This document shows positions 16,597 through 59,610 of a stretch of DNA of 64,000 nt, one piece after another. Position numbers and translations under genes: made by a program. Each line of letters opens with the position of its first letter. Within the stretch, counting starts at the first letter, position 1. The stretch spans positions 10,445-74,444 of the forward strand of contig JAKASS010000003.1 in the NCBI GenBank assembly GCA_021818905.1, given 5' to 3'. The notes beneath the pieces are model-generated. The model was not told the DNA's origin. It searched no databases and was given only the letters and a program-made list of their open reading frames with translations. Source of the stretch: Nanobdellota archaeon. Its GTDB lineage: Archaea > Nanobdellota > Nanobdellia > Parvarchaeales > Parvarchaeaceae.

Positions 16597-16679
16597 TGGA
16601 CTCGGGGGGATTTGAACCCCCAGTCTTTCCCAATCTGGATCTTTGCCATGGGAACGCGGTGCCGTTGCGCCACGAGCCC
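16597..16679 (-). tRNA. tRNA-Ala(GGC) with an 11-nt insert in the anticodon arm, likely an archaeal intron; CCA is not encoded
   Basis: Cloverleaf folded by hand. Acceptor stem GGGCUCG/CGAGUCC with the G3:U70 Ala identity pair. T arm GGGGG-UUCAAAU-CCCCC. Anticodon stem UUCCC/GGGAA around the loop AUGGCA(A/U). 83 nt total. Confidence 0.65.
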
Positions 16680-34841: not shown

Positions 34842-34921
34842 ATATTTAATCCAAAAATATTATGTTTATCGAAAACATCAACTTTTGTTGCGTCTAGTCT
34901 TTTAGTCATCATAGACAATCA

Positions 34922-35467
34922 CTATAGCTTCGTAGCATCAGAAAGCTTTACCCTCACCCTTTCCGACATATCATTGGTGCTAACATAAGCAAGCACATCG
35001 ATATCTGGGTCATAAAGCTCAACCATATCAAGATCAGTTCGATCCATTATCCTCGCTCCTTTCACCTTCCTTCCGTCTTTTAGAGATTGTTTAAGCGCTG
35101 CGTATTTCTTTGGTTCTAGATAAAAGTCCACATCTCCAACATGATGACGATATGGGTCTGGTCTTCTTATGTAAAGATAAGCGTAAGTCGTTTCTGGCAC
35201 ATCACCACTAGCAGGAATGACTATTGGTTCATATAAGTGGAAGTATTTTTGGTTAAGATTATAAGATGGTTCTGTTAGTGCTTTTCTAAGTTTGATAAGT
35301 GCATCATATTCATTATCGTAGTGGCAAAAAATTCCCATATTCCCTGCGTTTTTAAGATATCGGCCAAATGACTGTTTACAAAGTTTGTGACACTCGAAAT
35401 GAACGTGCTCTATAGCTTTGAACAATTTATCTTTATTAGTTATAGGGCTGAATCTATACAATTTCAT
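34922..35467 (-). CDS. Hypothetical protein
   Basis: 181-aa ORF with no recognizable motif. Confidence 0.4.
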   Translation of the reverse strand: MKLYRFSPITNKDKLFKAIEHVHFECHKLCKQSFGRYLKNAGNMGIFCHYDNEYDALIKLRKALTEPSYNLNQKYFHLYEPIVIPASGDVPETTYAYLYIRRPDPYRHHVGDVDFYLEPKKYAALKQSLKDGRKVKGARIMDRTDLDMVELYDPDIDVLAYVSTNDMSERVRVKLSDATKL

Positions 35468-35613
35468 TTAATCACTTCCTTATTACACTAAATTAGTGCC
35501 ACTACTTCTGATGCGTTGCATCATCATAGAGACAGCTCTAGTCGGAGTCTTGAGAGTTGTTATCACCATACTTAGTTAAACAGAAGGGCCGTTAAATAGG
35601 TTTCCTCGAATGG

Positions 35614-35722
35614 TACGCGTGTGCATAAGTGCTTTATAGAATGGCTGCTTCTGCAAGGATATGACGTCTAATATCGCTAAAATAAAGTCGTATGGTAGTG
35701 GAGGCGACTTTACACAAGCCTG
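35614..35722 (+). repeat. Solo copy of the left end of the IS5-family element (TIR plus about 95 nt of 5' leader), with no transposase
   Basis: About 85-90% identical to 5428-5530 (…gtgcataagtgctttatag…ctgcttctgcaaggatatg.cgtctaatatcgctaaaa…). It lies upstream of the mazE-like gene on the same strand. Confidence 0.6.
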
Positions 35723-35782
35723 GGTGCCTACTTATGAACATTAAGTTTATATAGTGTATTATACATTAACTATATGTAAACT

Positions 35783-36013
35783 ATGGTAAAGGAGATCAGC
35801 ACGATACAGTTAGATAAGTCTGTCATATCGGATTTAAAGAAACTTAAAAGATCGCCCAGGGAGACGTACGTAGAATTGATAAGATACTTGATTACTCTAG
35901 CTAAAAGAGACGACCTAAAGAACCAATACGATGAATTTTTACACAAGACCCAGCAAAAAAAGATGAAAGAATTATGGGACAACAAAGAAGATGAGAAGTG
36001 GGAAAATGTTTGA
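35783..36013 (+). CDS. Putative antitoxin partnered with the MazF-like toxin
   Basis: 76-aa charged protein. Its stop overlaps the toxin start by 23 nt. Confidence 0.5.
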   Translation: MVKEISTIQLDKSVISDLKKLKRSPRETYVELIRYLITLAKRDDLKNQYDEFLHKTQQKKMKELWDNKEDEKWENV

Positions 36014-36320
36014 CCCCGGTGATGTAGTTATAACCGAGGTGCAGTTTACAGATACGTTTGAAATAAAAAGACGCCCCGCACTTGTCCTGTTCGAAGAATT
36101 TGATAATGTAGTGATAGCCGGGATAACCAGTAATACTGGCATGGAAGGAGTCTCTATATCTAAAAAGGACGGTGCTGTCAAGGATAGCGTGATAAAGTTA
36201 AATTATATTTTTACCGTTTCAACAAAAATGATTGAAAGGAAACTTTTCACATTAAACAAAGAGAAAAAGAGATTGGTCTTTCAAGAACTTACAAAACGCT
36301 TGAGCCCGCTTAACAGTTAA
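35991..36320 (+). CDS. mazF: MazF/PemK-family endoribonuclease toxin
   Basis: FDPGDVVITEVQFTDTFEIKRRPALVL... is a PemK-like N-terminal signature. 109 aa. Confidence 0.7.
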   Translation: MRSGKMFDPGDVVITEVQFTDTFEIKRRPALVLFEEFDNVVIAGITSNTGMEGVSISKKDGAVKDSVIKLNYIFTVSTKMIERKLFTLNKEKKRLVFQELTKRLSPLNS

Positions 36321-36327
36321 ATCGCAT

Positions 36328-36372
36328 TCTGTGGAGCAGATTGCCCAAAAATCGCTTTCGGAACTACTGGGA
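36328..36372 (+). repeat. Left copy of a 45-46 nt direct repeat, a candidate att-like boundary
   Basis: tctgtgGagcagattgcccaaaaatcGctttcggaactactggga, compared with the copy at 42705-42750, has 2 mismatches and 1 indel. It is immediately followed by a CTTTCGGA/TCCGAAAG hairpin. Confidence 0.6.
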
Positions 36373-36442
36373 ATCAGTACCTCCGAAAGTGAAAAATAAC
36401 AAACTTCTAACATATAAATAGTATTACCTACATTTAAACAAA

Positions 36443-36712
36443 ATGCAAGGAAAACATAAAAATCATAACTTGGTAAGGTTCGCTTGGCTTCTAATTGGAA
36501 TCGGCGCACTGATAGTTATACTGGATATCATTGGTCCTAGTGGTGGTTGCGCTGTGGGATTGCCGATTTTTCCAATAAATGCGACAAGCACCACAGGTTC
36601 TCAATGTGCGTCTTTAGCGGTAAATTATAATCCATATAATTGGTTTTTAGGTCTTGGGTTTGCGCTCATTATTATTGGTGCTGCAATAGAGATTGTTCTC
36701 TATTACCAATAA
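36443..36712 (+). CDS. Small membrane protein
   Basis: 89 aa with two TM helices. Its stop abuts the end of the IS4-family transposase. Confidence 0.4.
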   Translation: MQGKHKNHNLVRFAWLLIGIGALIVILDIIGPSGGCAVGLPIFPINATSTTGSQCASLAVNYNPYNWFLGLGFALIIIGAAIEIVLYYQ

Positions 36713-36714
36713 AG

Positions 36715-38247
36715 TTATCCGTCTGGATTCTTAGTAGCTAAAAGTCTGATAGAAAACATTCTAGCGGTTATCATCGTCTTAGTCGTCCTTATGCCTAAAA
36801 ATGCCATAATTAGTAGGTCCACCAATATCCAACAGTTGTATAATATTACTGAAAGCATAAAGTAGAAGTATCTTATAATATAGTTTATCGATGTCGTCTT
36901 GCCCCTGAAATTATACTTCTTTACACGATATCCTGTCTCAATCTGCCAACGCCTTCTGTACATATCCGCGATTTTCTGCGCAAAAAGGATGTCCTGCGGA
37001 CCTATGTCGATGTTAGTTGCAAATCCTTGTCTGCCTCGGTCGCCTTCTATGACCGCCAAGTTGAACTTGCAATCTCCCATAACTGCATTTCTTTGTATAA
37101 ATGGCGTGACTCTGGTCTTACTGTTCTTCATTGCATTATTGCTTTCCTTCATCGGCATTATAAACTTTACGTCTAGTTTGTTTAGTCTTCTTATGCACTC
37201 AGACCCTAGAAAACCTCTATCAAGAAGTATTGTACCTATATGGATTCTTTCTTTTGCAAACGACACTAATCTTTCGACTAAATCATTCTAATCGTCTTGT
37301 GGAAAGACTGGCAGGGCGAATAAAGTTAACCTTTGACCATGATTTACTATGTCAATTGTGATGAACTTGAAACACCATTTCGTGCCTCTTTCTGGTTTGG
37401 TGCCGATGATTGCTGGATGTTCGGGATTTCCGTAGAAGAACCAGGGTGTTGCGTCTATTGCTAAATCTAGTTTACGGCCCAGAATCGAGCCGCCTTTCTT
37501 AGCCATTTTGAAGACCATGTCAAACAGATCATAGAATATCCTTTGTATTTCTCCGTAATCGAACTTCTTAAGGTGGTAGAATAGCGTGTCTGCGGATGGC
37601 ATTCTTTTTGACGATGTTTCCGCCAATATCTTTGATCCGCCTTCTGCGAAGTTTTGAGTTGCTGCGATGTTTATAAGCAAACCAAGAAAATCATCTTCTT
37701 TAAAGACGGAGTTTTGCTTAATGTTAAAACTTAGTTTTTGTCTGAGTTTTGTCCTGACTAACCTGAGTAGTTCTTTTTCCTTAACATTCTTGTTTTGTAT
37801 TACGGAGTTCTCTTTGCGCAGTTCCTTTGACTTATTTTCTAAAGAAACGTCATCGAATATGATGTTAAATTTATTTGTAAGTTCTTTTATTATTGCTATA
37901 ACTTGATTAGCTAACTCTAAGATTTCTGGGTTTAGTGTAAAAATAAAGTGTGAAAAATCTCGTCGCATTGGTAAAATTACTTTATCGGCATCTTTGTCGA
38001 AACCAATGTTTATTGCATCTTCAAGATGACCATTTAGATAAACTATCAGTTTTCTCTGCGACTTAATCCCTTTAATTATCATAAAAATGTAAGCTTTGAT
38101 CAGCGAATCGGAAGAATATTTTCGCTTTGAGGATATTTTCGGTAATAAGTCAATTTGTTTTAAAATGTCGGATAACAGAAACATTTTGGATTTGGAACTA
38201 ACAAAAATCGAACGAATTTTACGCATTAACTCGTTATTTTCTTTCAT
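36715..38247 (-). mobile_element. IS4/ISH3-family transposase gene split by a frameshift at about 37266-37288 (pseudogene or programmed frameshift)
   Basis: The N-terminal ORF (37288-38247) carries LAIDATPWFF (first D). The C-terminal ORF (36715-37266) carries LLDRGF (second D) and the RWQIETGYR E-motif. The two frames are adjacent. Confidence 0.65.
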
Positions 38248-38333
38248 ACAAGTGATTTACTTACAAGTCATTCACTTATATTATAAAAACGAAAAATATA
38301 TAAGCTTTTCGCTTGTAAGTTAATAAGTGTGAT

Positions 38334-38591
38334 ATGGTGAAGTATATCCCAAAATGGTTAATAAAACGTCTAAGTAAATTATGGGCAGCGTATAAAGAAA
38401 AGGAATTTACTTTTGAGGAGGCAACAAAGGCGCTGCCTGAAGACGACCCTAGAAACTTAGCTATGGTGCTTTCTGACTTAAATAAAAGTGGGTGGATAGA
38501 AACCAAACAAGATCCAAAAAATAAGAGGAAGACCCTTTACAAAATAAAGCAAGGTTCTATCGTAAATGAGCTTATAAAAATAGAGCTTTAA
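38334..38591 (+). CDS. Small winged-helix-like protein (possible regulator of the downstream helicase-nuclease)
   Basis: 85 aa. It lies 69 nt upstream of the 958-aa gene on the same strand. Confidence 0.4.
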   Translation: MVKYIPKWLIKRLSKLWAAYKEKEFTFEEATKALPEDDPRNLAMVLSDLNKSGWIETKQDPKNKRKTLYKIKQGSIVNELIKIEL

Positions 38592-38660
38592 TTATCGTTT
38601 TAAAGCAGATGAAATTTGAAACTAAAATTAGTATTATATTAGCTTTAACTTAAGTAACTT

Positions 38661-41537
38661 ATGGGTTACTATAGCGATTCAGAATTAATTAGAAAGCTAA
38701 AGGTAAGACAACATAAAAATTATATTTCTACAAAGGAACATAAATTTGAGGGAATTTTATTTAAAAAACGGATCACTAACCCAGACGACTTGCCTGCCGA
38801 AATAAGAAAAATGGATACATTTAATAAAATACGCAATTTTTTCCCGATACAGATTAAAGCATTCGACGCCGGAATTTTAAATCACAGAAATTTAGTACTT
38901 TGCGCACCGACTGGTATGGGAAAAACTCTACCAATAGACATTTCAGCTATTAAGACCGTTGTTGATGGTCATAAAAAAGTAATATTTTTAGAACCTTATC
39001 TCGCAATAACGAACCAAAAGGTAGGAACGTTAGCTAATGAAACTTTAAATATAATTCCTGGACAATTTACTGGAGAAACGAATGATAATCCTTCTAGATC
39101 AAATATAATTTACGCCACCGCTGAAAAACTGTTTCTAGCGATACAAAATAGAGAAATCTGGTTAAATGATGTTGGTTTACTAGTTGTTGATGAATGTGAC
39201 ATTCTGAATGATATTAACCGGGGCGCAATTCTAGAAGAAGTAATTAGTTGCTTTATAACTCTATACAAAGATGCACAGATTGTGATGTTGTCGGCGACAT
39301 TATCTAATGGAGAAGATTTGGCCAAATGGATTGGGGGAACATACATAAGTGATAATACGCGTAATGTTAAGATAAAATACGAACTTTATCCGACATTTGA
39401 TTTCACTGTAGAAGAATTAAAAAAGATTGAAGAGCAAGAAAATCAAATCTTTATCACATTAGAAAATCCGATAAAACCGCTAGAAAATAAAAACCCGTCT
39501 GAAAATGAGATATTAGTTGCCACCTCCACTAGAAAGGAGGCAAAAAAACTATGTTGGAAATTACTAAAATCTAGAGGTACTCACTCATCTACTCAAGACC
39601 TTGGTAGATATTTAAGTGAATTAGGAAAAAAAATAAAAAGGGAAGCAAAGTATGGGATGGATAAGATTTCTAAGATGGTGTCTATAACCGTTCATGCTGA
39701 AGTTGCAGTTCATAACGCGGGTTTAACAAGAAAGCAAAGAACTTTAATAGAAAGCGCATTCGAAGAAAAACTTATAAAAATATTAGTATGTACCCCAACT
39801 CTAAATAGAGGAATTAATTTGCAGCTTAAAAAACTTATTTTATACAATGGAATAAAAAAAGCGGAGGGATTGATGACTGTATCAGAATTCCATCAGCTAT
39901 GTGGGCGTGTTGGGAGACCTGGTCAAGAAAACGTGGGTGAGGTTATAATATGTTGCAATAGCTTTGAGGAGATGGTCGTTGCGAAGGAGAAAATAATGGG
40001 ACGATATGAACTCGTTGAATCCAAATTAAAACCGCACATCGCAAGTTTTATTATTCTTCTTGTAGGTGCGGGATACTCTCTCAAGATAATAAGCCAAATT
40101 TTAATGAATACTCTATTCGCTTCTATGAATTTTGAGTCACCCATAGTTAAAGATTTTAATGAAGCGGCTTTGCTGTCTACTATAAAAAGTGCGCCAACAA
40201 TTTTCGATTTAATAAATGAAACGCCAAAATTAACAAAATTCGGGGAACTATGTTTTAGGTATAGTGGCTACGAACTAAAGGATATAAAAGAACTATGTAA
40301 GTCAATAACTAAGAAAGCAAAGGATGAGACACTGAATAAAAGTGATTTAATTGAGCTAATAAACACTTTGATTTCTAAAAGAAAAAGTCAACATGCGGAA
40401 TGGACTTTGCTTCTAAATGCTTGGTTAAGTGGTGATAAAAATGTTCCTAAGCCTCTAGAAACTGAAAAAACGGATTTTGGAACGAAAGACTTTAAAGAGT
40501 TTAAAAAACGATCTAAAAATATAAGTAATCTAATTTGTTCACTTATAGAATATAATGACATTGATAAATCTTCAATTTTTTGGATATTCGGATTACCAAA
40601 TTGCATTGAATTCGGGCTGGACCCTATTAAATACGGAGAGTTAGCCGCGATATCGAATAATAGAAAGCAGGCATGTTTACTTACAGAGGGTTTTGATGGC
40701 AGCATAAAAATAGCGAGCGAAAAAACGCTTAATGAATACAGAGAGATATTAGGACATAACTCATTTGCATCTTCTATGGGTATACTTAAAAAATTAAATA
40801 AAATATTAGGAAAACCGGAGCGAGTGAGCGTCGGCGAAGCAGTTAATTTTATTCATTGTCCGTTGTCGTTTTTATTAGACTATTATTACAGCTTAAAGAA
40901 TATGGAAATGCTAGAGAAAGATATACAAGAAAAAACAGAAATTGGGGGAAATGTACATAAATATATACATAAGTTCTGTGAATATTGGAATCACGTAGGA
41001 ACGATAGTAAAGGCAAAAGGGCTTACATTAGACTTAATTGGAAGAGATTCTCCTAATAATATTGACGAAATAACCTCTGCTTTTAATAATTTCTGTAATT
41101 TTTTACTATCAAATAATTTTAAAGCTGCGAACTCCTCTGAAAAAGTTATAGAAAGTAAAAAATTGGAAATTCAAGGCATATTAGATTTAGTGCTTTTGGA
41201 TTATAATAATTATTTAACATTAATAGAAATAAAATCTGGCGACTTTCAGGAATACAGATATGAACAATGGGACCAAAATCAAATTTATTTGTATTATCTT
41301 ATTTTAAGAGACTGCGACATAGATATAAAAGATGCCTTTGTTTTATATTTAAAACCTCTAACTGCGTCATATGTTGATTTAAGCGAAGAAAAATTACGAA
41401 AAATTTCTTCTTATATAGGAGCGATGCGTAATTTAATGAGTCGCGTGGACGCACTTAAAGATGAGAATCTAAGAGGACTTTGTACTTGCAGAAACTCTTC
41501 TCATAAATGCGTATGCAATCAACTTTTTGATGAATAA
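38661..41537 (+). CDS. Ski2/Hel308-like SF2 helicase fused to a C-terminal Cas4/RecB-type Fe-S PD-(D/E)xK nuclease
   Basis: Helicase motifs: Q motif FPIQ, I APTGMGKT (aa 82-89), II DECD (177-180), III SAT (211-213), IVa HNAGL (351-355), VI QLCGRVGRPG (412-421). Nuclease motifs: CPLSF (Cys733), D842/D847...E856-I-K858, Q-x3-Y (872-878), and a terminal C-x-C-x6-C-x-C (941-952). Confidence 0.7.
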   Translation: MGYYSDSELIRKLKVRQHKNYISTKEHKFEGILFKKRITNPDDLPAEIRKMDTFNKIRNFFPIQIKAFDAGILNHRNLVLCAPTGMGKTLPIDISAIKTVVDGHKKVIFLEPYLAITNQKVGTLANETLNIIPGQFTGETNDNPSRSNIIYATAEKLFLAIQNREIWLNDVGLLVVDECDILNDINRGAILEEVISCFITLYKDAQIVMLSATLSNGEDLAKWIGGTYISDNTRNVKIKYELYPTFDFTVEELKKIEEQENQIFITLENPIKPLENKNPSENEILVATSTRKEAKKLCWKLLKSRGTHSSTQDLGRYLSELGKKIKREAKYGMDKISKMVSITVHAEVAVHNAGLTRKQRTLIESAFEEKLIKILVCTPTLNRGINLQLKKLILYNGIKKAEGLMTVSEFHQLCGRVGRPGQENVGEVIICCNSFEEMVVAKEKIMGRYELVESKLKPHIASFIILLVGAGYSLKIISQILMNTLFASMNFESPIVKDFNEAALLSTIKSAPTIFDLINETPKLTKFGELCFRYSGYELKDIKELCKSITKKAKDETLNKSDLIELINTLISKRKSQHAEWTLLLNAWLSGDKNVPKPLETEKTDFGTKDFKEFKKRSKNISNLICSLIEYNDIDKSSIFWIFGLPNCIEFGLDPIKYGELAAISNNRKQACLLTEGFDGSIKIASEKTLNEYREILGHNSFASSMGILKKLNKILGKPERVSVGEAVNFIHCPLSFLLDYYYSLKNMEMLEKDIQEKTEIGGNVHKYIHKFCEYWNHVGTIVKAKGLTLDLIGRDSPNNIDEITSAFNNFCNFLLSNNFKAANSSEKVIESKKLEIQGILDLVLLDYNNYLTLIEIKSGDFQEYRYEQWDQNQIYLYYLILRDCDIDIKDAFVLYLKPLTASYVDLSEEKLRKISSYIGAMRNLMSRVDALKDENLRGLCTCRNSSHKCVCNQLFDE

Positions 41538-41587
41538 ATCTTATATTATTTAATTTTAATGCCAACGCTCTCTGGTCCAATTATTAT

Positions 41588-41617
41588 CTGAGCACAGAAT
41601 TAACACATGGTGCTCAG
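41588..41617. terminator. Hairpin between convergent genes (candidate bidirectional terminator)
   Basis: CTGAGCAC-14 nt-GTGCTCAG with T-rich flanks, between the helicase-nuclease (+) and the multi-HTH gene (-). Confidence 0.35.
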
Positions 41618-42582
41618 TTTTCATAGGTTCTCCTATTTTTTAGCGCCATTTGTATTTCGCTTATTTTTCGCTTACTAAAACCATTAGGTTGTTTGATATC
41701 CAAGAAAGCTTTTATAGCAACTGCTTCTTTTCCTGGAAGACAGTAAATTGCCACCTTGCCGATTATTACTGATTTAATGAGTGCATTTTTCCCTATTCGC
41801 TTGAATATCATTATATTTTTGCGGTTAGATATTACATACCCTCTGTTTATCAGATTGCACAGGATTTGAAAATAAACTCCGCCTATCCTACTGTGTTTTC
41901 CTTTTAAGTCAGACGTCCACCTGACTATTGTCGGATAGCTCACTTTTAGCATGTTAGATAGTTCAGTCTTCTGAACACCGCTCTTTATCAGCCGTCTTAC
42001 CTTTTTCTTAAACTTGTCTGGATACCTTTTGAGTTCTGGCGCGCGGTTTAGCCACTTGTTAAGGGTTTTTAGGTTTATTCCTAGCTCCGCTGCGGTCTTA
42101 AGTCTGGACTTTCCTGAAGCGACTAAATCTAGCGCTTTTTTTCTAAATTCGTCCGTATAGATTACTTGCTTGTTTGATATCGGTATGTTCCATCTGTTTA
42201 TAGTGCTTATCGCTATTCCAAGACGCCCAGCCGTTTCGGTCCTGCTGAGCCCAGAAGAAAGCATTTCTACGGCTCTTTGTTTTACGCTTTCTGGTAACCT
42301 GTGATAGGTTGAAATGCCATAAAGCCATTTTGCAAGAGTTCCGTACGGGATGCCAAGTTCCGCTGATATTTTGTATCTCGACTTGCCTTCTAAAGCAAGG
42401 GCTTTAGCTTTCTCTTTTACCTCTTGCGGATAAATTCGTGCGTTAATACTTGGTATCTGCCAAGTACTTAACGTGCCTAGGGGTACACCTAATTGCAGAG
42501 CAGTAGCATATTTTGTCATTCCTGACGTTATAAGTTCCTTTGCTTTGCTTCTGATATCGTCGGGATACTTGCTTCCTTTCAT
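41614..42582 (-). CDS. Protein with five tandem about 45-aa helix-turn-helix repeats and a C-terminal domain of unknown function
   Basis: The repeats follow the pattern x.K.KA.EL..SG.S....A..LGI...TL..W (transposase-type HTH). No DDE, tyrosine-recombinase or serine-recombinase catalytic motifs were seen. The gene is next to the att-like repeat and tRNA-Leu. Confidence 0.5.
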   Translation of the reverse strand: MKGSKYPDDIRSKAKELITSGMTKYATALQLGVPLGTLSTWQIPSINARIYPQEVKEKAKALALEGKSRYKISAELGIPYGTLAKWLYGISTYHRLPESVKQRAVEMLSSGLSRTETAGRLGIAISTINRWNIPISNKQVIYTDEFRKKALDLVASGKSRLKTAAELGINLKTLNKWLNRAPELKRYPDKFKKKVRRLIKSGVQKTELSNMLKVSYPTIVRWTSDLKGKHSRIGGVYFQILCNLINRGYVISNRKNIMIFKRIGKNALIKSVIIGKVAIYCLPGKEAVAIKAFLDIKQPNGFSKRKISEIQMALKNRRTYEN

Positions 42583-42704
42583 AGTATTTCATGAAAACGC
42601 ATATTAAAACCGTCTTCGGTCGTTGCCCAAAACAGGCTATTTTTAGAGGGAGCTTTTTGCGAACCGATTTTCAGAAATGGGCACTGGCGGGCAATCAGTA
42701 ACGT

Positions 42705-42750
42705 TCTGTGAAGCAGATTGCCCAAAAATCACTTTCGGAACTACTGGGGA
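42705..42750 (+). repeat. Right copy of the 45-46 nt direct repeat, abutting the 3' end of tRNA-Leu
   Basis: tctgtgAagcagattgcccaaaaatcActttcggaactactgggga. It ends 1 nt before the tRNA discriminator base. Confidence 0.6.
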
Positions 42751-42751
42751 A

Positions 42752-42836
42752 TGCAGGGAGAGGGATTTGAACCCTCGAAGGCCTAAGCCACTAGCCCCTG
42801 AAGCTAGCACGTTTGACCGGGCTTCGCTATCCCTGC
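42752..42836 (-). tRNA. tRNA-Leu(CAG), class II with a long variable arm; CCA is not encoded
   Basis: Cloverleaf folded by hand. Acceptor stem GCAGGGA/UCCCUGC. Anticodon stem CUAGC/GCUAG around the loop UUCAGGG. T arm GAGGG-UUCAAAU-CCCUC. 85 nt. Confidence 0.75.
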
Positions 42837-42880: not shown

Positions 42881-43279
42881 TTATTTGTACCCTAACGTAT
42901 TTTTTACAGTTATTACGAACTCTTCGGCGTTCTTCAAAGTGTTTTCTACGGCTACTTTATCAGGTTCTATTGTCACATCATATGTACTAGCTTGTCTTAT
43001 AGCCAATGCGCGATTCAAATATCTAGAAAATTTCTTTTCTAATTTTCCCGTTTTTATGTAATAGTTACTGAAAGAGGCTACAACGCCTCGGTGCGTTTTT
43101 GGAGGCCTTATTCTTGCGCTTATTAGCGCTGCGGTGGCGGAATAGAACATTGCATAATAAGCCAGGCTTGCGGCCGGTCTAAGCAGTGAGTTCTCAAAAT
43201 TAAGATAGGACTCCTCGAGTGTCTTATCCGCTAGTTTTACGTAGCTTTCCAGTAAGCTTTTCGAATACACTTCTTCCAT
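42881..43279 (-). CDS. HEPN-domain protein (toxin half of a HEPN-MNT pair)
   Basis: 132-aa alpha-helical protein whose reading frame overlaps the upstream MNT gene. Confidence 0.55.
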   Translation of the reverse strand: MEEVYSKSLLESYVKLADKTLEESYLNFENSLLRPAASLAYYAMFYSATAALISARIRPPKTHRGVVASFSNYYIKTGKLEKKFSRYLNRALAIRQASTYDVTIEPDKVAVENTLKNAEEFVITVKNTLGYK

Positions 43280-43721
43280 AAAGTCCTATTGCGTCTTCAC
43301 TAACATTTCTTATAAACGGTGTGCCTAGCATCACCGATTTCCTCAAAGTTTCTGGCGTTACAAAAAATAAAGATATAAAAAACGCGAAATCGTTCTCCAA
43401 TTCGAAGTCTACCAAGGTGTCATATGCCCTAGACGTGAAATTTAGGTCATTAGCATATTTAGTTAAGACCATGATGTCTATGTCGCTGCTTCTTTTGGCA
43501 TGGCCTCTCGAAACAGAGCCATAGAGCACTATTGCGTCTATCTTTTTGCCAAATTTCAAAGATAGTCGCCCCGCAAATTCTTGCGCTACCCTTCTATATT
43601 CTAAGCTGATGGTCTTTGCCATATTTTTCATTGGGTGCTTAAACAATTTAAGCTTTTTAGATTTTAGAAGGCGCATTCTAATTGCTGTGAAGCCTAAGCC
43701 ACTGGCCCCTGAAGCTAGCAC
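43224..43721 (-). CDS. Minimal nucleotidyltransferase (MNT antitoxin-like)
   Basis: GSVSRGHAKRSSDIDI matches the GS-x9-13-D-x-D motif of pol-beta-superfamily NTases. The true start is probably an internal Met (MKNMAK). Confidence 0.65.
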   Translation of the reverse strand: MLASGASGLGFTAIRMRLLKSKKLKLFKHPMKNMAKTISLEYRRVAQEFAGRLSLKFGKKIDAIVLYGSVSRGHAKRSSDIDIMVLTKYANDLNFTSRAYDTLVDFELENDFAFFISLFFVTPETLRKSVMLGTPFIRNVSEDAIGLYGRSVFEKLTGKLRKTSG

Positions 43722-43747
43722 ATTTGACCGGGCTTCGCTATCCCTGC
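43692..43747 (-). repeat. Degenerate duplicate of the 5' half of tRNA-Leu, in direct orientation to the intact gene
   Basis: 56 nt with 2 mismatches relative to 42781-42836 (tRNA positions 1 to about 56). The mismatches break the anticodon and D stems. Confidence 0.7.
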
Positions 43748-44303: not shown

Positions 44304-44320
44304 TACGCTTGTGCATAACT
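44304..44320 (+). repeat. Short solo copy of the IS5-element terminal repeat
   Basis: tacgcttgtgcataact, about 110 nt upstream of the RHH gene. Confidence 0.45.
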
Positions 44321-44432
44321 CCATTAAATAAGCCTAACTTCGTCTGACTTGCTTTGGACTTTCTTTCCTGCTGCGCCCAGCCGGAGAAGAAAAAAGTATT
44401 TATACTATGATTATTCTTAATTATCTATAATT

Positions 44433-44651
44433 ATGGGGAATAAAAACAGCAGATTTACGACCGTTTCTATACCAAAGCCTTTGGCGGACAAGGCGAAAAA
44501 AATAATAGAAAAAACTGGCTTTACTTCTCTCTCAAGTTTTGTTGAATACCTTCTTAGGGAGATCGCCTCTGAAAGAAGAGGGGGCACTAAGGGAAAGGGG
44601 GAGGATTTAAAGGGCGTCGAAGAAAGGCTGAGGCGCCTTGGCTATCTATGA
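44433..44651 (+). CDS. Ribbon-helix-helix (CopG/Arc-like) DNA-binding protein
   Basis: VSIPKPLADKAKKIIEKTGFTSLSSFVEYLL. 72 aa. Its stop overlaps the next start. Confidence 0.6.
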   Translation: MGNKNSRFTTVSIPKPLADKAKKIIEKTGFTSLSSFVEYLLREIASERRGGTKGKGEDLKGVEERLRRLGYL

Positions 44652-44941
44652 GTAAAATAAAGGAACTGTCAGAAGCTCTATGGAAACTTCCTAGCCAGAA
44701 AAACTGGGCTGCCTTTTCAAAGGGTTTAAAAAGCAGCGGACTTAGATACTACAAAATAGTATTTGCAAACGAGGGGAAACTAAATAGAATGCAAGATCTC
44801 ACAAAATCCTTTGTCGAACTGTACGATTCTAAATATGCGCTAATAACAAAGGTGCCACTTTTCAGAAAAACCGGAAATAAAGTAGACGGCGCCACAATCT
44901 ATCTAATCGGACTATCTGTTTCAAATAAGGGGAAAATATGA
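44648..44941 (+). CDS. Hypothetical protein translationally coupled to both the RHH gene and cysD
   Basis: 97 aa with ATGA overlaps at both ends. Confidence 0.4.
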   Translation: MSKIKELSEALWKLPSQKNWAAFSKGLKSSGLRYYKIVFANEGKLNRMQDLTKSFVELYDSKYALITKVPLFRKTGNKVDGATIYLIGLSVSNKGKI

Positions 44942-45726
44942 TAAAGCAGGATTTAAAGAGTTTAGAGGGGAAGAGCATCTACATTATAAGAGAAGCCAAA
45001 TTAAAGTTCAAAAACGTGGCGGCGCTATGGAGCATGGGCAAAGATTCAACAACTATGCTCGCCTTGACTAGAAAGGCCTTTTTAGGCAAAGTCCCATTTC
45101 CAGTCATACACATAGATAACAGCATAGATTTTCCGGAAACGTACAAATTTAGACAGGATCTAGCAAAAAAATGGGGCTTAAACCTTATAGTGGCTAGAAG
45201 CGAAATAAAACCGGACATTATCGGTTCTGCTTGCTGCGGAAAAAATAAACCGGAAACGCTCAAGAAAGTCATGAAAGAATACGGCTTTGATGCACTTATA
45301 GTTTCCATAAGACGAGATGAGCATGGCATACGAAGCAAAGAGAGGTACATGAGCCCAAGAGACGAAAAATTTCGATGGAATTTCAAGGATCAACCGGCAG
45401 AACTGTGGGATGATTACTCCTCGAAGCTTGACGAAGCGGGGCACGTGCGGGTCCATCCGATACTTGACTTTAACGAGATTGACATATGGAATTATATAAA
45501 AAAGGAGCGCGTACCAGTCAATCCACTATACTTTTCAAGAGACGGCTACCGATACAGAAGTCTAGGTTGCACGCACTGCACGACCCCTATAAAGTCCGCC
45601 GCAAAAAACGTTGACGACATAATAAAAGAGCTATCGACTACAAAAACCGAAGAAAGATCTGGGAGGAGCATGGACAAAGAAAACGCATATGTGATGGAGC
45701 GATTGCGCCAATTTGGATACATGTGA
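44938..45726 (+). CDS. cysD: Sulfate adenylyltransferase subunit 2 (CysD, PAPS-reductase-like PP-loop)
   Basis: SMGKDSTTMLAL PP-loop and PFPVIHIDN, matching the CysD pattern. Confidence 0.7.
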   Translation: MIKQDLKSLEGKSIYIIREAKLKFKNVAALWSMGKDSTTMLALTRKAFLGKVPFPVIHIDNSIDFPETYKFRQDLAKKWGLNLIVARSEIKPDIIGSACCGKNKPETLKKVMKEYGFDALIVSIRRDEHGIRSKERYMSPRDEKFRWNFKDQPAELWDDYSSKLDEAGHVRVHPILDFNEIDIWNYIKKERVPVNPLYFSRDGYRYRSLGCTHCTTPIKSAAKNVDDIIKELSTTKTEERSGRSMDKENAYVMERLRQFGYM

Positions 45727-45745
45727 AAGACCATAGACGATTTGT

Positions 45746-46969
45746 ATGAAAGTTTACCCGATATCTCTGCTAGGACATAAAGACCACGGAAAATCTACAC
45801 TTATTGGCAGCTTGCTGATGCAAACCGGTGCCGCTACGCAAGCCAGAATTCAAGAAGCGGAACAATACAGTAAAAAATTGCATAAAGACTTCGAACCTGC
45901 TTTCATACTCGACAGCTTCGCTGAGGAACGAACCGGAGAGATGACCATAGATACTACAAGGGCAGAGATAACCTACAAAGGGCTTGCTTTTGCACTGATA
46001 GACGTGCCCGGGCATGAAGAACTGATAAAAAATATGATAAGCGGGGCCAGCTACGGTGAAATAGCGATTCTACTTGTCTCCGCAAAGGGGGGAGAAGGTA
46101 TACAGCCGCAAACGAAGAGACATCTCTACATCGCAAGAATGCTCGGAATAGACACACTGATAGTCGCGGTAAATAAAATGGACCTAATCGACTATGACCA
46201 AGAAAAATTCGAGGAGATAAGACACGATTTATCGAGTTTCATAGAAAAAATAGGCTTTGAAAGAAGCAAAGTGCACTTTGTGCCGATTTCTGCTTACAAA
46301 GGAGAAAACTTAGTGAAAACCTGCAAGAGTCTGGATTGGTACGGCGAGGGAACACTTTTAGACGTGATTTACAGAAGCGTTAAAAAAGAAGAAAAAGCTG
46401 TCGGTGGTCCCTTAAGGATCGTAGCACAAGGCAGCATAGTCAGTGCCGGAAAAAGCATGGTGGTCGGTAGAGTGATAAACGGGAGCATAAAGAAGGGAGA
46501 AAGAGTATGCTTTCTACCATCTAAAATCGCCGCTGTCGTCAGTGATATAGTCGTAAATGGGAAAAAAGTAGGCAGAGCTTTTTCTGGAGATAACGTAGCC
46601 CTTGCCTTTAAAAATAAGATCAATGGAGAAACGCGCGGCTCTGTGATATATAGCGGTGAGAATAAACCATCACTAAAAGATTCTATAAACGCCAGGATAT
46701 TCCTGGCCGGGAAACTCGGGAAGGATTTAAAAATAAAATTTAACGGTATCGATGTCGGATGCAAGGGGATAAAGATTTTGCGTAAGATAGACCCGACTAC
46801 CGGCGATAGCAGCAGTGCTAAAAATATAAAACCACTAGACGCGGCAGAGGCCGAGGTGACTTTAATCAAAAATATACCCACAGAGGATTATAATATTACA
46901 AGAGAGCTCGGAAGATTCGTCTTTTACAGCGGAAATAAGTTTTTGGGTATCGGGATAATAGAACGATAA
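45746..46969 (+). CDS. cysN: Sulfate adenylyltransferase subunit 1 GTPase (CysN/NodQ-like, no APS-kinase domain)
   Basis: GHKDHGKSTLIG, DVPGHE, NMISGAS..IAILLVSA, QTKRHLYIARMLGI and NKMDL, matching the CysN signature. Confidence 0.7.
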   Translation: MKVYPISLLGHKDHGKSTLIGSLLMQTGAATQARIQEAEQYSKKLHKDFEPAFILDSFAEERTGEMTIDTTRAEITYKGLAFALIDVPGHEELIKNMISGASYGEIAILLVSAKGGEGIQPQTKRHLYIARMLGIDTLIVAVNKMDLIDYDQEKFEEIRHDLSSFIEKIGFERSKVHFVPISAYKGENLVKTCKSLDWYGEGTLLDVIYRSVKKEEKAVGGPLRIVAQGSIVSAGKSMVVGRVINGSIKKGERVCFLPSKIAAVVSDIVVNGKKVGRAFSGDNVALAFKNKINGETRGSVIYSGENKPSLKDSINARIFLAGKLGKDLKIKFNGIDVGCKGIKILRKIDPTTGDSSSAKNIKPLDAAEAEVTLIKNIPTEDYNITRELGRFVFYSGNKFLGIGIIER

Positions 46970-46975
46970 GTTTAT

Positions 46976-48310
46976 CTAAACTTCTGGCATTTTGAAATTT
47001 TCTTTGCCTTTAAATCCCTCCAATCTATTCAGAAGCCCCTTTACGACATCAGACCTATCTTTAGGATCTAGGCTTCTTCCATTTTCTAAGAATTCTTCTA
47101 TTCTCCCATCTGTGCCGTTGACAGTCAGCTTGAATCTATCATTATAAATGGCCTTTCTGACTTTTTCGTATTTTTGCTTTACGTACGCCCTTCTGTCTTT
47201 ATATCCCCCCGGAAGTATTGTGACATCCCCATACGCTTCGGAAAATGCCGTTTCTTTTGTAAGTGCGCTATCGTTTCCTCCTTCCAGTATACTTTTTATT
47301 AGATCAGATAAGTTTACAAGGCTCTGGTATCCGTTCCTTTTGGGAAACTTTCTACTTTTAGGGTATTTTATTATCATTGGTATTCTGGTTATCTCATCGT
47401 AAAGATAAGTATTATGATACATGTAACCATGTTCATTGAAAGCCTGGCCGTGGTCAGATGTTATTATGAGCATCGTATCGTCATATACCCCCCTGCGTTT
47501 TAAGGTGCTGATGATCTCTCCTAACTGGGAATCTAAATATTCGGCTTCTAATATGTATTGTTTTTTAAGATGCTTCGCCTTAGATCTTCCTATAGAGCGG
47601 ATACCAGTAAAATCGTCCCATGTTTCCTTCGGTTTGTAACCTACGTACGGTTCGTGCATCTCGACGAAATTAATGAATTTAAAGAAGTGTTCCCCCCACT
47701 TACTGTTGGCAAAAATATCGTTTATTAAATAAGCGCCTTTGTCCAATGGATAGTTAGAAACTTTTTCAAGGCGACGTATCTTCGTCCACGCCTTTGCATA
47801 CCTATACAGTTCCTTAAACTTTCCGTGTTTCAAAAGCGCCGCGGCTATTGCGCCCGGACTCGGACCTAATTTTCTAGCCTCTAAAAAGAGCTCGCTCGCC
47901 CATTTTTCCCTCATTTTCGGGATTGGGTCTAAGCTTACGAAAGATTGAAAACCGATATCAAAGGCGGTGAAGGGCGAGACCATTATATTTGTAGACAGCC
48001 CGTCTGTGGCATATCCGTTTTCTGAAAAGCGTTCTGCTAACCTTTCGGCTCTTAGATCTCGATGATATTTTGTAAGTCCAAGCAGTTTTATTTTATCCGT
48101 TTCGTGAACTCCATGTTGGCTAGGGTAAAGGCCAGTAAACAATGATACATGAGAAGGATAAGTCCATGGAGAAGGCGCGATCGCGTTCTCGTACACCATC
48201 GCATCTTTTGCGAGCAGTTTAAGCGACGGCGTTTTTGCATCCCCGCCATAAAGGCCTAGAATATCCTTTCGCATCGTATCGCAAACTATCAATAGCACAT
48301 TTGACGCCAT
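46976..48310 (-). CDS. Sulfatase-family (alkaline phosphatase superfamily) protein lacking the catalytic Cys/Ser
   Basis: LLIVCDTMRKD is followed by TYPSHVSLFTGLYPSQHGV, which aligns to the sulfatase CTPSRAALLTGRYPHRHGV with Cys changed to Thr and Arg changed to His. Confidence 0.6.
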   Translation of the reverse strand: MASNVLLIVCDTMRKDILGLYGGDAKTPSLKLLAKDAMVYENAIAPSPWTYPSHVSLFTGLYPSQHGVHETDKIKLLGLTKYHRDLRAERLAERFSENGYATDGLSTNIMVSPFTAFDIGFQSFVSLDPIPKMREKWASELFLEARKLGPSPGAIAAALLKHGKFKELYRYAKAWTKIRRLEKVSNYPLDKGAYLINDIFANSKWGEHFFKFINFVEMHEPYVGYKPKETWDDFTGIRSIGRSKAKHLKKQYILEAEYLDSQLGEIISTLKRRGVYDDTMLIITSDHGQAFNEHGYMYHNTYLYDEITRIPMIIKYPKSRKFPKRNGYQSLVNLSDLIKSILEGGNDSALTKETAFSEAYGDVTILPGGYKDRRAYVKQKYEKVRKAIYNDRFKLTVNGTDGRIEEFLENGRSLDPKDRSDVVKGLLNRLEGFKGKENFKMPEV

Positions 48311-59378: not shown

Positions 59379-59413
59379 AACAGAATCCTATGAGTTTTTA
59401 CTATTATTAACTT

Positions 59414-59499
59414 TGCGCCGACCGGGAATCGGACCCGGATTAATGAATTTTCCTCATCGCTGTGGGAATCCATTGTTCTGACCGTTAAACCATCGGCGC
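59414..59499 (-). tRNA. tRNA, probably Gly(CCC), with a 14-nt insert in the anticodon arm likely to be an archaeal intron; CCA is not encoded
   Basis: Cloverleaf folded by hand. Acceptor stem GCGCCGA/UCGGCGC. D stem GUUU/GAAC. Anticodon stem AUGGA/UUCAU around UUCCCA. T arm CCGGG-UCCGAUU-CCCGG. The T-loop sequence is atypical. Confidence 0.5.
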
Positions 59500-59610
59500 A
59501 CTTGATGAATTAGATCGTATTATTATTTATAGGATCTTTTTATTGTTGATCCAAAATATTCTGTAACTGCATAGCAAGTATTTAAAAGTCTGGCGTATTA
59601 AATTATTATT

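What the first reader, a model, noticed from the sequence alone, without database searches (positions are those of the whole stretch)
36328..42750. A 6.3-kb segment bracketed by 45-46 nt direct repeats, with the right repeat abutting the 3' end of tRNA-Leu: a putative integrated element
The two repeat copies differ by 2 mismatches and 1 indel. One follows mazF and the other ends 1 nt from the tRNA-Leu(CAG) discriminator base. The repeats enclose a small membrane protein, a frameshifted IS4-family transposase, a small winged-helix gene, the helicase-nuclease and a five-HTH protein. No recognisable integrase is present. The recombinase may therefore have been lost, or replaced by the IS, or be the unusual HTH-repeat protein. 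Direct repeats at a tRNA 3' flank are the classic footprint of site-specific integration.
Basis: seen in the sequence. Interest (0 to 1): 0.7.

Follow-up and report, generated by a model that had tools for sequence, protein, structure and literature searches.

The report
tRNA-targeting cargo transposon in a DPANN archaeon
The 6.4-kb segment next to tRNA-Leu is a real inserted mobile element, but it looks like a cargo-carrying ISH3-like DDE transposon, not an integrase island; its relatives insert, always in the same orientation, a few bases after the end of tRNA genes and carry defence genes.

Summary
The repeats, the tRNA and the gene content are all present as described. A near-identical strain has the empty site, so the segment is a genuine insertion.

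The anatomy is not that of an integrase island:
- The true ends are 17-bp imperfect terminal inverted repeats, at 36375-36391 and 42730-42746.
- They are flanked by a 5-bp duplication, GGAAT, which begins at the tRNA discriminator base.
- The "nested, frameshifted IS4 transposase" is the element's own ~510-codon ISH3-like DDE transposase. It is broken by one in-frame TAG, not a frameshift.
- The left 45-nt "repeat" is a relic of the tRNA-proximal end of an older copy.

Two complete sibling elements in other Parvarchaeota (DPANN) contigs share this plan. Each has the same end sequences, a 5-bp duplication (TGAGT, TTCAA), a multi-HTH gene at the tRNA-proximal end and an orthologous transposase at the distal end. 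Their cargo is restriction-modification genes instead of the helicase-nuclease. Three partial copies show the same tRNA junction. Targets are tRNA-Leu(CAG), an intron-bearing tRNA-Cys(GCA) and one unidentified tRNA.

No integrase was found in the window element (domain searches) or recorded in the precomputed Pfam annotation of the siblings. I read this as a new, site- and orientation-specific variant of the ISH3 transposon family. That the multi-HTH protein selects the target is inference.

The parts
42752..42836 (-). tRNA-Leu(CAG), the insertion target. It stays intact, and its discriminator base (42752) is the first base of the duplicated 5-mer.
   Evidence: ARAGORN and Rfam tRNA, 52.2 bits. 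A relative at about 83% nucleotide identity (L036) has this tRNA directly between the LMW phosphatase and adenylosuccinate synthase genes.
42748..42752 (.). tRNA-proximal copy of the 5-bp target-site duplication. It reads GGAAT on the + strand and ATTCC in the tRNA orientation.
   Evidence: Sequence and junction table. The siblings have perfect 5-bp duplications: TGAGT in L039 and TTCAA in L043.
42730..42746 (.). tRNA-proximal terminal inverted repeat, CACTTTCGGAACTACTG on the + strand. It reads CAGTAGTTCCGAAAGTG inward from the tRNA.
   Evidence: It is 15/17 complementary to 36375-36391 (I17). The same end follows a tRNA in L037, L038, L039, L042 and L043. It starts with CAGT, matching the ISH3-family end consensus CRGT (PMC2266710).
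42583..42729 (-). Subterminal leader between the proximal inverted repeat and the multi-HTH gene. It holds a T5 run and repeated TTTTGG(G)CAA(T) motifs at about 42718-42728 and 42623-42630, plus an inverted GGGCAAT at 42689.
   Evidence: Motif scan. The first 58 nt of the element are 100% identical to L037, although the adjacent gene is only 50-90% identical. The two-motif arrangement is visible in L038, L039 and L042.
41614..42582 (-). Multi-HTH protein (322 aa): five transposase-type three-helix HTH modules plus a C-terminal alpha/beta domain. It is the conserved core gene at the tRNA-proximal end and a candidate target selector or end-binding accessory protein.
   Evidence: Pfam HTH_23, HTH_Tnp_1, HTH_28 and a weak TnsD hit; AF2 model. 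The family has 2-5 HTH modules plus the conserved C-terminal domain. It holds the same position and orientation in L037, L038, L039, L042 and L043.
38661..41537 (+). Cargo: a 958-aa fusion of a Hel308-like SF2 helicase (about residues 43-530) with a Cas4-like PD-(D/E)XK nuclease (about residues 720-950). It is a putative defence gene.
   Evidence: Pfam, NCBIfam Hel308 and cas4, PADLOC HamB-type helicase and Cas4. Only three full-length homologues (33-36% identity) among 5.8 billion proteins. The siblings carry restriction-modification genes at this position.
38334..38591 (+). Cargo: an 85-aa winged-helix protein upstream of the helicase-nuclease.
   Evidence: Weak Pfam HTH_27 hit. No homologue in the sibling elements.
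36715..38247 (-). The element's own ISH3-like DDE transposase: 510 codons in one frame, with a single in-frame TAG at 37288-37290 (Gln in the homologues), so probably inactive.
   Evidence: Translation. It is collinear with the 523-aa L039 and 506-aa L043 transposases at 46-52% identity. NCBIfam ISH3 gives 161.8 bits, E 1.9e-47, over the whole profile, below the 225-bit cut-off. An intact 510-aa relative at 84% identity exists (P0250).
36443..36712 (+). Small 89-aa membrane ORF between the transposase and the distal end. The siblings have unrelated 65-72-aa ORFs in this position and orientation.
36375..36391 (.). tRNA-distal (transposase-side) terminal inverted repeat, CAGTACCTCCGAAAGTG on the + strand.
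   Evidence: The 16-mer ACTTTCGGAGGTACTG is found exactly at the distal end of the window element, L039 (17512-17527) and L043 (11105-11120).
36370..36374 (.). Distal copy of the 5-bp target-site duplication (GGAAT on the + strand).
36322..36369 (-). Relic (about 45-48 nt) of the tRNA-proximal end of an older element copy. It is the sequence that adjoins the tRNA in the empty-site strain.
   Evidence: L002 carries exactly this variant next to the tRNA. Its last bases (…CACAGAATGCGA) match other family members rather than the current element. L039 has a 370-nt relic and L036 a roughly 40-nt relic in the same place.

Best explanation
Window 36375-42746 (6372 bp) is a unit transposon of a divergent, long-transposase clade of the archaeal ISH3 family (IS4-related DDE transposases). 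The host is a Parvarchaeota-like DPANN archaeon.

Shown:
- The element has 17-bp imperfect terminal inverted repeats beginning CAGT and a 5-bp target-site duplication.
- Its layout, in tRNA orientation, is: proximal end, conserved leader, multi-HTH gene, cargo, roughly 510-aa transposase, small ORF, distal end.
- It sits immediately 3' of tRNA-Leu(CAG). The duplicated 5-mer starts at the discriminator base, so the tRNA gene is left intact.
- Related elements sit at the same offset and in the same orientation behind tRNA-Leu(CAG), an intron-containing tRNA-Cys(GCA) and a third tRNA.
- Their cargo differs: a helicase-nuclease here, type II restriction-modification genes elsewhere.
- New copies land between the tRNA and a resident copy. 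The resident copy then decays, which produced the 45-nt "direct repeat".

Inferred:
- The DDE transposase cuts at the inverted repeats and makes a 5-bp staggered cut at the target.
- Site and orientation specificity come from a DNA-binding selector. This is most likely the multi-HTH protein at the proximal end, by functional analogy to TnsD of Tn7, or else the roughly 170-aa N-terminal extension of the transposase.
- The T-run in the proximal end may terminate tRNA transcription.
- The window copy is probably immobile now, because of the TAG codon.
For: - Empty site in a 99.5%-identical strain.
- Inverted repeats 15/17 complementary.
- Identical 16-mer distal end in three elements whose transposases are only 46-75% identical.
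- 5-bp duplications in three of three complete elements: ATTCC(+C)/ATTCC, TGAGT/TGAGT and TTCAA/TTCAA.
- Collinear orthologous transposases at the same end and in the same orientation.
- No inner inverted repeat next to the transposase gene, so it is not a nested IS.
- Best family hit is ISH3, E about 1e-47.
- The published ISH3 hallmarks, ends CRGT and a 4-5-bp duplication, are both met (PMC2266710).
- All six element copies (three complete, three partial contigs) and the relics at tRNA-Leu start 4-6 nt after a tRNA discriminator base, in one orientation.
- L042 and L043 carry elements 99.4% identical, with different 4-nt spacers (TTTT against TCAA). The neighbouring host gene is only 82% identical. 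This implies recent transfer and host-derived duplications.
- GC is about 30-35% inside against about 42% outside.
- No integrase in the window element, and none in the precomputed Pfam annotation of the siblings.
Against: - Only three complete and three partial elements were examined, and not all are certainly independent events.
- The window's proximal duplication copy has an extra base. The empty-site strain reads ATTCG where the window has ATTCC.
- L037 has a 6-nt spacer.
- The transposase scores below NCBIfam's curated ISH3 cut-off (about 160 against 225 bits).
- No transposition intermediate, second genomic copy or non-tRNA insertion was seen.
- An inverted-repeat core with a short identical spacer is also what a tyrosine-recombinase core site leaves behind.
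- The role of the multi-HTH protein is untested. Its HTH region is 88% identical between two elements that sit at different tRNAs. This fits end-binding at least as well as target-binding.
Confidence: 0.8

Rival explanations
1. The segment is a site-specific integrative element. It would be moved by a tyrosine or serine recombinase that is encoded elsewhere (a helper element, or host XerA-like) or was lost. The inverted arms plus 5-nt spacer would be the recombinase core site, and the 45-nt repeat would be attL/attR.
For: - The empty site exists.
- The reconstructed junction is an imperfect palindrome with a 5-nt spacer, as in recombinase core sites.
- Archaeal att sites of 40-50 bp at tRNA genes, sometimes extending outside the gene, are well known (PMC8371274).
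Against: - No recombinase in the window element, and none in the precomputed Pfam annotation of the two complete siblings.
- No split integrase across the circular junction.
- L043 has no long repeat, only 5 bp.
- Spacers differ between 99.4%-identical elements, whereas a recombinase overlap should travel with the element.
- A conserved DDE transposase with family-typical ends and duplication length already accounts for mobility.
Confidence: 0.1
2. There was no recent mobility. The two strains would differ by a deletion, through homologous recombination between the two 45-nt repeats in the empty-site strain, and the segment would be an old, fixed island.
For: The two repeat copies share 17- and 20-nt exact stretches that could support rare recombination.
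Against: - The empty site carries the distal-copy variants at both SNPs. Its spacer next to the tRNA is TTCG, not the window's TTCCC, so it is not a simple recombinant of the window's two copies.
- The proximal copy is 100% identical over 58 nt to an independent element at another tRNA (L037).
- Nearly identical elements occur in hosts whose flanking gene is 82% identical.
Confidence: 0.03
3. The multi-HTH protein is itself the recombinase, or the sole mobility protein, and the transposase is a passenger.
For: It is the gene next to the tRNA-proximal end in every copy, which is the position an integrase usually holds.
Against: It consists only of HTH modules and a small, poorly conserved alpha/beta domain. 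There is no catalytic domain or conserved nucleophile motif. The transposase is equally conserved in all complete elements.
Confidence: 0.03

Closest known systems
ISH3 family insertion sequences (archaeal, IS4-related DDE; De Palmenaer et al. 2008, PMC2266710)
   Same: - The best transposase profile hit covers the whole ISH3 model.
- The ends begin CAGT, matching the family consensus CRGT.
- The target duplication is 5 bp.
- The host is an archaeon.
   Different: - The elements are 6.4-10.4 kb with passenger genes, against 1.2-1.5 kb with one ORF.
- The transposase is about 510 aa, with an N-terminal extension of roughly 170 aa, and scores below the curated family cut-off.
- There is an extra conserved multi-HTH gene.
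- Insertion is strictly at tRNA 3' ends and in one orientation.
- Copy number is low (1-6 contigs per cluster), without the expansions seen for some ISH3 elements.
Tn7-like transposons with TnsD/TniQ target selectors
   Same: - Insertion is site- and orientation-specific into a safe site just downstream of a conserved gene, including tRNA genes (PMC8649781).
- The ends are asymmetric, with repeated subterminal motifs.
- The cargo is defence genes.
- A separate DNA-binding protein is a plausible selector, and it has a weak Pfam TnsD-HTH hit.
- From my own knowledge, not tested here: Tn7 also makes a 5-bp duplication.
   Different: - There is no TnsB (rve-type) transposase, no TnsA and no TnsC AAA+ ATPase.
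- The transposase is of the DDE_Tnp_1 (IS4/ISH3) type.
- The multi-HTH protein has no TniQ zinc-ribbon domain.
- The host is archaeal.
Family 2 casposons (for example Aciduliprofundum boonei; PMC6614799)
   Same: They are archaeal elements with terminal inverted repeats and a target duplication. They insert at and partly overlap the 3' end of a tRNA gene, form tandem arrays and carry methyltransferase, nuclease or helicase cargo.
   Different: Casposons use a Cas1 integrase and a PolB. None is present here, and the duplication here is 5 bp.
tRNA-integrating genomic islands with tyrosine integrases, and their integrase-less remnants
   Same: - The location is at a tRNA gene.
- An empty site exists in a close relative.
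- Composition is foreign.
- Successive elements accumulate at one tRNA.
   Different: - There is no integrase.
- The boundaries are inverted repeats plus a 5-bp duplication.
- The long repeat is a relic of a previous copy, not an att duplication.

Membership tests
   No hit in Pfam, NCBIfam, PHROGs or PADLOC for any ORF of the window element. No such family in the precomputed Pfam annotation of the L039 and L043 elements. The ten nearby window ORFs that were scanned also lack one.
   The long repeat lies outside the tRNA. The sibling L043 has only a 5-bp repeat, and in L039 the repeat is 370 nt of a truncated older copy.
   L002 has mazF, one repeat copy and then tRNA-Leu. This is equally expected for a transposon.
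SSV-type (suicidal) archaeal integrase element | The int gene is split by integration, so an ORF spans the reconstructed attP | tested here: not met
   Only 40- and 65-codon open frames (stop to stop) cross the reconstructed junction, and neither continues into a gene.
ISH3 family (IS4-related) transposable element | A DDE transposase belonging to the ISH3 family | tested here: inconclusive
   ISH3 is the best NCBIfam model for all three transposases: 157-164 bits, E 1e-46 to 1e-48, covering profile positions 8-297 of 298. This is below the curated 225-bit cut-off. Pfam DDE_Tnp_1 is also present.
ISH3 family (IS4-related) transposable element | Terminal inverted repeats beginning CRGT | tested here: met
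   Both ends read CAGTA… inward. The consensus is from PMC2266710.
ISH3 family (IS4-related) transposable element | A target-site duplication of 4-5 bp | tested here: met
   ATTCC (with one extra base on one side), TGAGT and TTCAA.
ISH3 family (IS4-related) transposable element | A compact IS of 1.2-1.5 kb with a single ORF | tested here: not met
   The elements are 6372, 7693 and 10425 bp, with 5-10 genes between the ends and no inner inverted repeat.
Tn7-like transposon | TnsB (rve) transposase, TnsC AAA+ ATPase and a TnsD/TniQ selector | tested here: not met
   No rve, TnsC or TniQ domain. The only link is a sub-threshold TnsD-HTH hit (28.5 bits against a 32.4-bit cut-off) in the multi-HTH protein.
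Casposon | A Cas1-family integrase (casposase) | tested here: not met
   No Cas1 hit. The only Cas-related hit is a Cas4-like nuclease domain inside the cargo helicase.

The most novel reading that the evidence does not exclude
The variable-length array of transposase-type HTH modules (2-5 repeats plus a conserved C-terminal domain) may be a modular target selector. It would read the 3' end of a tRNA gene and position an IS4-superfamily DDE transposase for insertion exactly at the discriminator base, in one orientation. That would be a minimal two-protein, site-specific transposition system in archaea, with no AAA+ adaptor and no guide RNA. It would have arisen independently of Tn7 and casposons, and it would build defence islands behind tRNA genes in DPANN genomes.
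Probability: 0.3. Interest if true: 0.8.

Novelty: new variant of a known kind. Interest (0 to 1): 0.6.

Why it matters
Site-specific insertion next to tRNA genes is normally credited to integrases, with Tn7-like elements and casposons as the known exceptions. Here an ordinary IS4/ISH3-type DDE transposase appears to have gained three things: strict site and orientation specificity for the base after the tRNA acceptor stem, a dedicated multi-HTH partner gene, and defence-gene cargo.

If this is confirmed, it would:
- add a third, independent route to "safe-site" transposition, in archaea;
- explain how defence islands accrete behind tRNA genes in very small DPANN genomes;
- offer a compact protein-only targeting system for experimental study.

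It also carries a practical warning. A direct repeat at a tRNA flank can be a relic of tandem transposon insertion and need not be an att site.

Tried and rejected
- **Split (SSV-type) integrase across the circular junction.** Rejected.
- **Dispersed REP- or terminator-like repeat.** A 19-mer scan of the genome and metagenome collections gave only single hits in unrelated organisms, the metagenome ones with no other similarity to the window. The window's own species appears not to be among the reference genomes, so its whole genome could not be scanned.
- **Nested IS with its own ends.** No inverted repeats were found around the transposase gene. At first I suspected that the low-GC N-terminal 190 aa of the 319-aa ORF was a fused foreign gene. 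I rejected this because it aligns with the intact sibling transposases.
- **Viral or proviral relatives.** The helicase-nuclease, the HTH protein, the transposase profile and the longer end motif gave nothing in IMG/VR. The 16-mer distal end gave nine hits, and none of those loci encodes a relative of the transposase or the small end ORFs.
- **Helicase-nuclease as the conserved core of the element.** Rejected. Its three homologues sit in unrelated operons, and the siblings carry restriction-modification genes instead.
- **Catalytic fold in the multi-HTH protein.** The AF2 model has low confidence (pLDDT 62) and shows only HTH modules plus a small alpha/beta domain. The top PDB hit is a designed repeat protein and is irrelevant.
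Full report
**1. Observation**

The two 45-nt direct repeats are real. They lie at 36327-36371 and 42704-42748 and differ at 2 positions. They are the only copies in the window, with none expected by chance. tRNA-Leu(CAG) lies at 42752-42836 on the minus strand. The left copy follows mazF.

- an 89-aa membrane ORF;
- two ORFs with a DDE transposase domain;
- an 85-aa winged-helix protein;
- a 958-aa DEAD/Helicase_C/PD-(D/E)XK protein;
- a 322-aa protein made of HTH modules.

No ORF matches an integrase in Pfam, NCBIfam, PHROGs or PADLOC. GC falls to about 30-35% inside, against about 42% outside.

**2. The segment is a true insertion**

- **Empty site.** A contig from another sequencing run (L002) is 99.5% identical to the window over 10.4 kb. 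It runs from mazF through a single repeat copy directly into the 3' end of tRNA-Leu. Its junction sequence differs from both window junctions, so it is not an assembly chimera of window-type sequence.
- **Ancestral locus.** A more distant relative (L036, about 83% nucleotide identity, NCBI GCA_030044235.1) has the arrangement LMW phosphatase, tRNA-Leu(CAG), 80 nt, adenylosuccinate synthase. The window therefore holds about 8.8 kb of accreted DNA around this tRNA.
- **Not a dispersed repeat.** A 19-mer from the repeat gave only single hits in unrelated organisms in the genome and metagenome collections, the metagenome ones with no other similarity to the window.

**3. What the boundaries really are**

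Searching for relatives of the multi-HTH protein changed the picture.

- A homologue at 73% identity (L037) lies directly after the 3' end of a different tRNA. The first 58 nt after a short spacer are 100% identical to the window's right repeat and the bases beyond it. The gene that follows the HTH gene is a DNA methyltransferase, not the helicase-nuclease.
- An exhaustive profile search found a family of proteins with 2-5 HTH modules plus a conserved C-terminal domain. Named members come from Candidatus Parvarchaeota and Parvarchaeum (DPANN).
- Their loci show the same arrangement: L038 behind tRNA-Leu(CAG), and L039-L041 and L042-L044 behind an intron-containing tRNA-Cys(GCA). In each, the tRNA is followed by 4-6 nt, then CAGTA(G/C)… and a leader of about 165 nt, then the multi-HTH gene.

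In the two contigs long enough to hold a whole element, the far end is the exact 16-mer ACTTTCGGAGGTACTG. The same 16-mer lies at window 36375-36390.

Both ends read CAGTA..TCCGAA.GT inward, so they are imperfect terminal inverted repeats (15/17 in the window). They are flanked by a 5-bp direct repeat:

| Element | tRNA-proximal 5-mer | Distal 5-mer |
|---|---|---|
| L039 | TGAGT | TGAGT |
| L043 | TTCAA | TTCAA |
| Window | ATTCC, plus one extra C | ATTCC |

In each case the 5-mer begins with the tRNA discriminator base.

**4. The transposase belongs to the element**

- All three complete elements carry a DDE_Tnp_1 transposase just inside the distal end, in the same orientation as the tRNA and the HTH gene. 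A small ORF on the opposite strand follows it.
- The window's two "ORFs" align collinearly with the 523-aa (L039) and 506-aa (L043) proteins at 46-52% identity.
- The window's two "ORFs" are one 510-codon frame interrupted by a single TAG at 37288-37290, where the homologues have Gln. The same TAG is present in contigs from two further samples (L001, L034).
- There is no inverted repeat next to the transposase gene that could define a nested IS.
- ISH3 is the best family model for all three proteins: 157-164 bits, E about 1e-47, over the full profile, though below the curated 225-bit cut-off.
- De Palmenaer et al. (PMC2266710) describe ISH3 as an archaeal family with ends CRGT and 4-5-bp duplications. 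Both features are met here. The family's 1.2-1.5-kb size is not met, because these elements carry passenger genes and measure 6372, 7693 and 10425 bp.
- About 45 clusters of such long (500-530 aa) transposases exist, each on only 1-6 contigs. Ordinary ISH3-like proteins of 360-415 aa lack the N-terminal 170 aa or so.

**5. Origin of the 45-nt "direct repeat"**

- The right copy is the functional tRNA-proximal end of the present element.
- The left copy carries the same variants as the single copy in the empty-site strain.
- Its last bases (…CACAGAATGCGA) match other family members rather than the current element.
- In L039 the corresponding position holds 370 nt of a truncated older copy: the end, the leader and the first 200 nt of an HTH gene, at 76% identity.
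- L036 has a degenerate relic of about 40 nt.

New copies therefore insert between the tRNA and a resident copy, and the resident copy then decays. L043 sits in a naive site with no relic. The relic is thus not needed for targeting, and the determinant should lie on the tRNA side.

**6. Transposition against site-specific recombination**

A recombinase core site also leaves inverted arms and a short identical spacer, so the anatomy alone does not decide. Four points favour transposition:
- No recombinase was found in the window element, and none is recorded in the Pfam annotation of the two complete siblings, whereas a conserved DDE transposase with family-typical ends and duplication length is present.
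- L042 and L043 carry elements that are 99.4% identical. Their spacers differ at 3 of 4 positions (TTTT against TCAA), and the neighbouring host gene is only 82% identical. This is as expected for host-derived duplications after recent transfer.
- No ORF spans the reconstructed junction.
- The empty-site spacer (TTCG) is not what recombination between the window's two repeat copies would leave.

I put the transposon reading at about 0.8 and a trans-acting recombinase at about 0.1.

**7. Mechanism**

- **Shown.** The architecture, the ends, the duplications, and the fixed position and orientation at three kinds of tRNA gene. The cargo varies: a Hel308-like helicase fused to a Cas4-like nuclease here, and type II restriction-modification genes in the siblings.
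- **Inferred.** The transposase makes a 5-bp staggered cut starting at the discriminator base.
- **Inferred.** Specificity comes from the multi-HTH protein or from the N-terminal extension of the transposase.
- **Inferred.** The conserved leader, with two TTTTGGCAAAT-type motifs about 100 nt apart, binds one of these proteins.
- **Inferred.** The T-run may terminate the tRNA transcript.
- **Structure of the multi-HTH protein.** It has only HTH modules of the type found in transposases and invertases, plus a small alpha/beta domain. It therefore cannot be the catalyst.
- **An ambiguity.** The HTH region is 88% identical between the window and L037 elements, which sit at different tRNAs. This fits end-binding at least as well as target selection.

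**8. Comparison with known systems**

The element works like Tn7-type safe-site transposons and like family 2 casposons, which insert at the 3' end of tRNA-Pro (PMC6614799; PMC8649781). It lacks their defining proteins. It is best filed as a divergent, cargo-carrying, target-specific variant of the ISH3 family. Four full-text searches found no description of tRNA-targeting ISH3-like transposons or of this multi-HTH family. That is absence of evidence in an incomplete library.

**9. Verdict**

- The window copy is probably a recently inactivated member of an active family.
- Interest is 0.6. The main uncertainty is the small number of loci examined and the untested targeting mechanism.

Noticed in passing
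window 43692-43747 and 42781-42836 (with 42881-43721 between): The 5' 56 nt of tRNA-Leu are duplicated (96% identical) 911 nt upstream. The two copies bracket a nucleotidyltransferase/HEPN toxin-antitoxin pair. By synteny with L036, the fragment keeps the native upstream flank, and the full tRNA sits behind new upstream DNA. This looks like a remnant of a second, different insertion into the 5' half of the same tRNA. Attachment sites in the 5' half are known for pTN3-like integrases (PMC8371274).
   Followed up: partly
window 35614-35714 and 5428-5529; ORF 5512-6462: A stretch of about 100 nt upstream of mazE is 84% identical to the region just upstream of, and overlapping the start of, a 316-aa DDE_Tnp_1 transposase gene at 5512-6462. 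It is probably a solo IS-end relic. A 28-nt match to its start also occurs at 44304-44331.
   Followed up: partly
window 34875-36326: Relative to L036, a 181-aa ORF with no family hit and a mazE-like/mazF pair lie between the old transposon relic and the adenylosuccinate synthase promoter. No transposon end was found at their far boundary, so how they arrived is unexplained.
   Followed up: partly
window 59413-59500 and 16597-16679: There are two further tRNA genes. ARAGORN calls one with a 4-nt anticodon (ccca), and the other is seen only by Rfam. Both are probably intron-containing, as is the tRNA-Cys in the related loci. Neither has a transposon end next to it.
   Followed up: no
L038 2179-2263: The tRNA-Leu(CAG) next to the element in this genome ends …CCCTGAA instead of …CCCTGCA, which gives a G1-A72 mismatch right at the insertion junction.
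   Followed up: no
L039 9650-9690: About 30 nt upstream of the tRNA-Cys there is a 42-nt sequence that starts with CAGTACATCCGAA and ends with GTACTG. It looks like an internally deleted, inverted mini-relic of a transposon end.
   Followed up: no
window 38661-41537; L018, L019: The Hel308-like helicase/Cas4-like nuclease fusion is very rare, with three full-length homologues (33-36% identity) among 5.8 billion proteins. In those contigs it is translationally coupled to unknown proteins. It may be part of an undescribed defence system.
   Followed up: partly
window 44433-48310 against L036 3121-4662: Between the LMW phosphatase and EF-2 the window has two small ORFs, a PAPS-reductase-like gene, an EF-Tu-like GTPase and a sulfatase. 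L036 has a 513-aa AAA ATPase there. This is another variable segment beside the tRNA locus.
   Followed up: no
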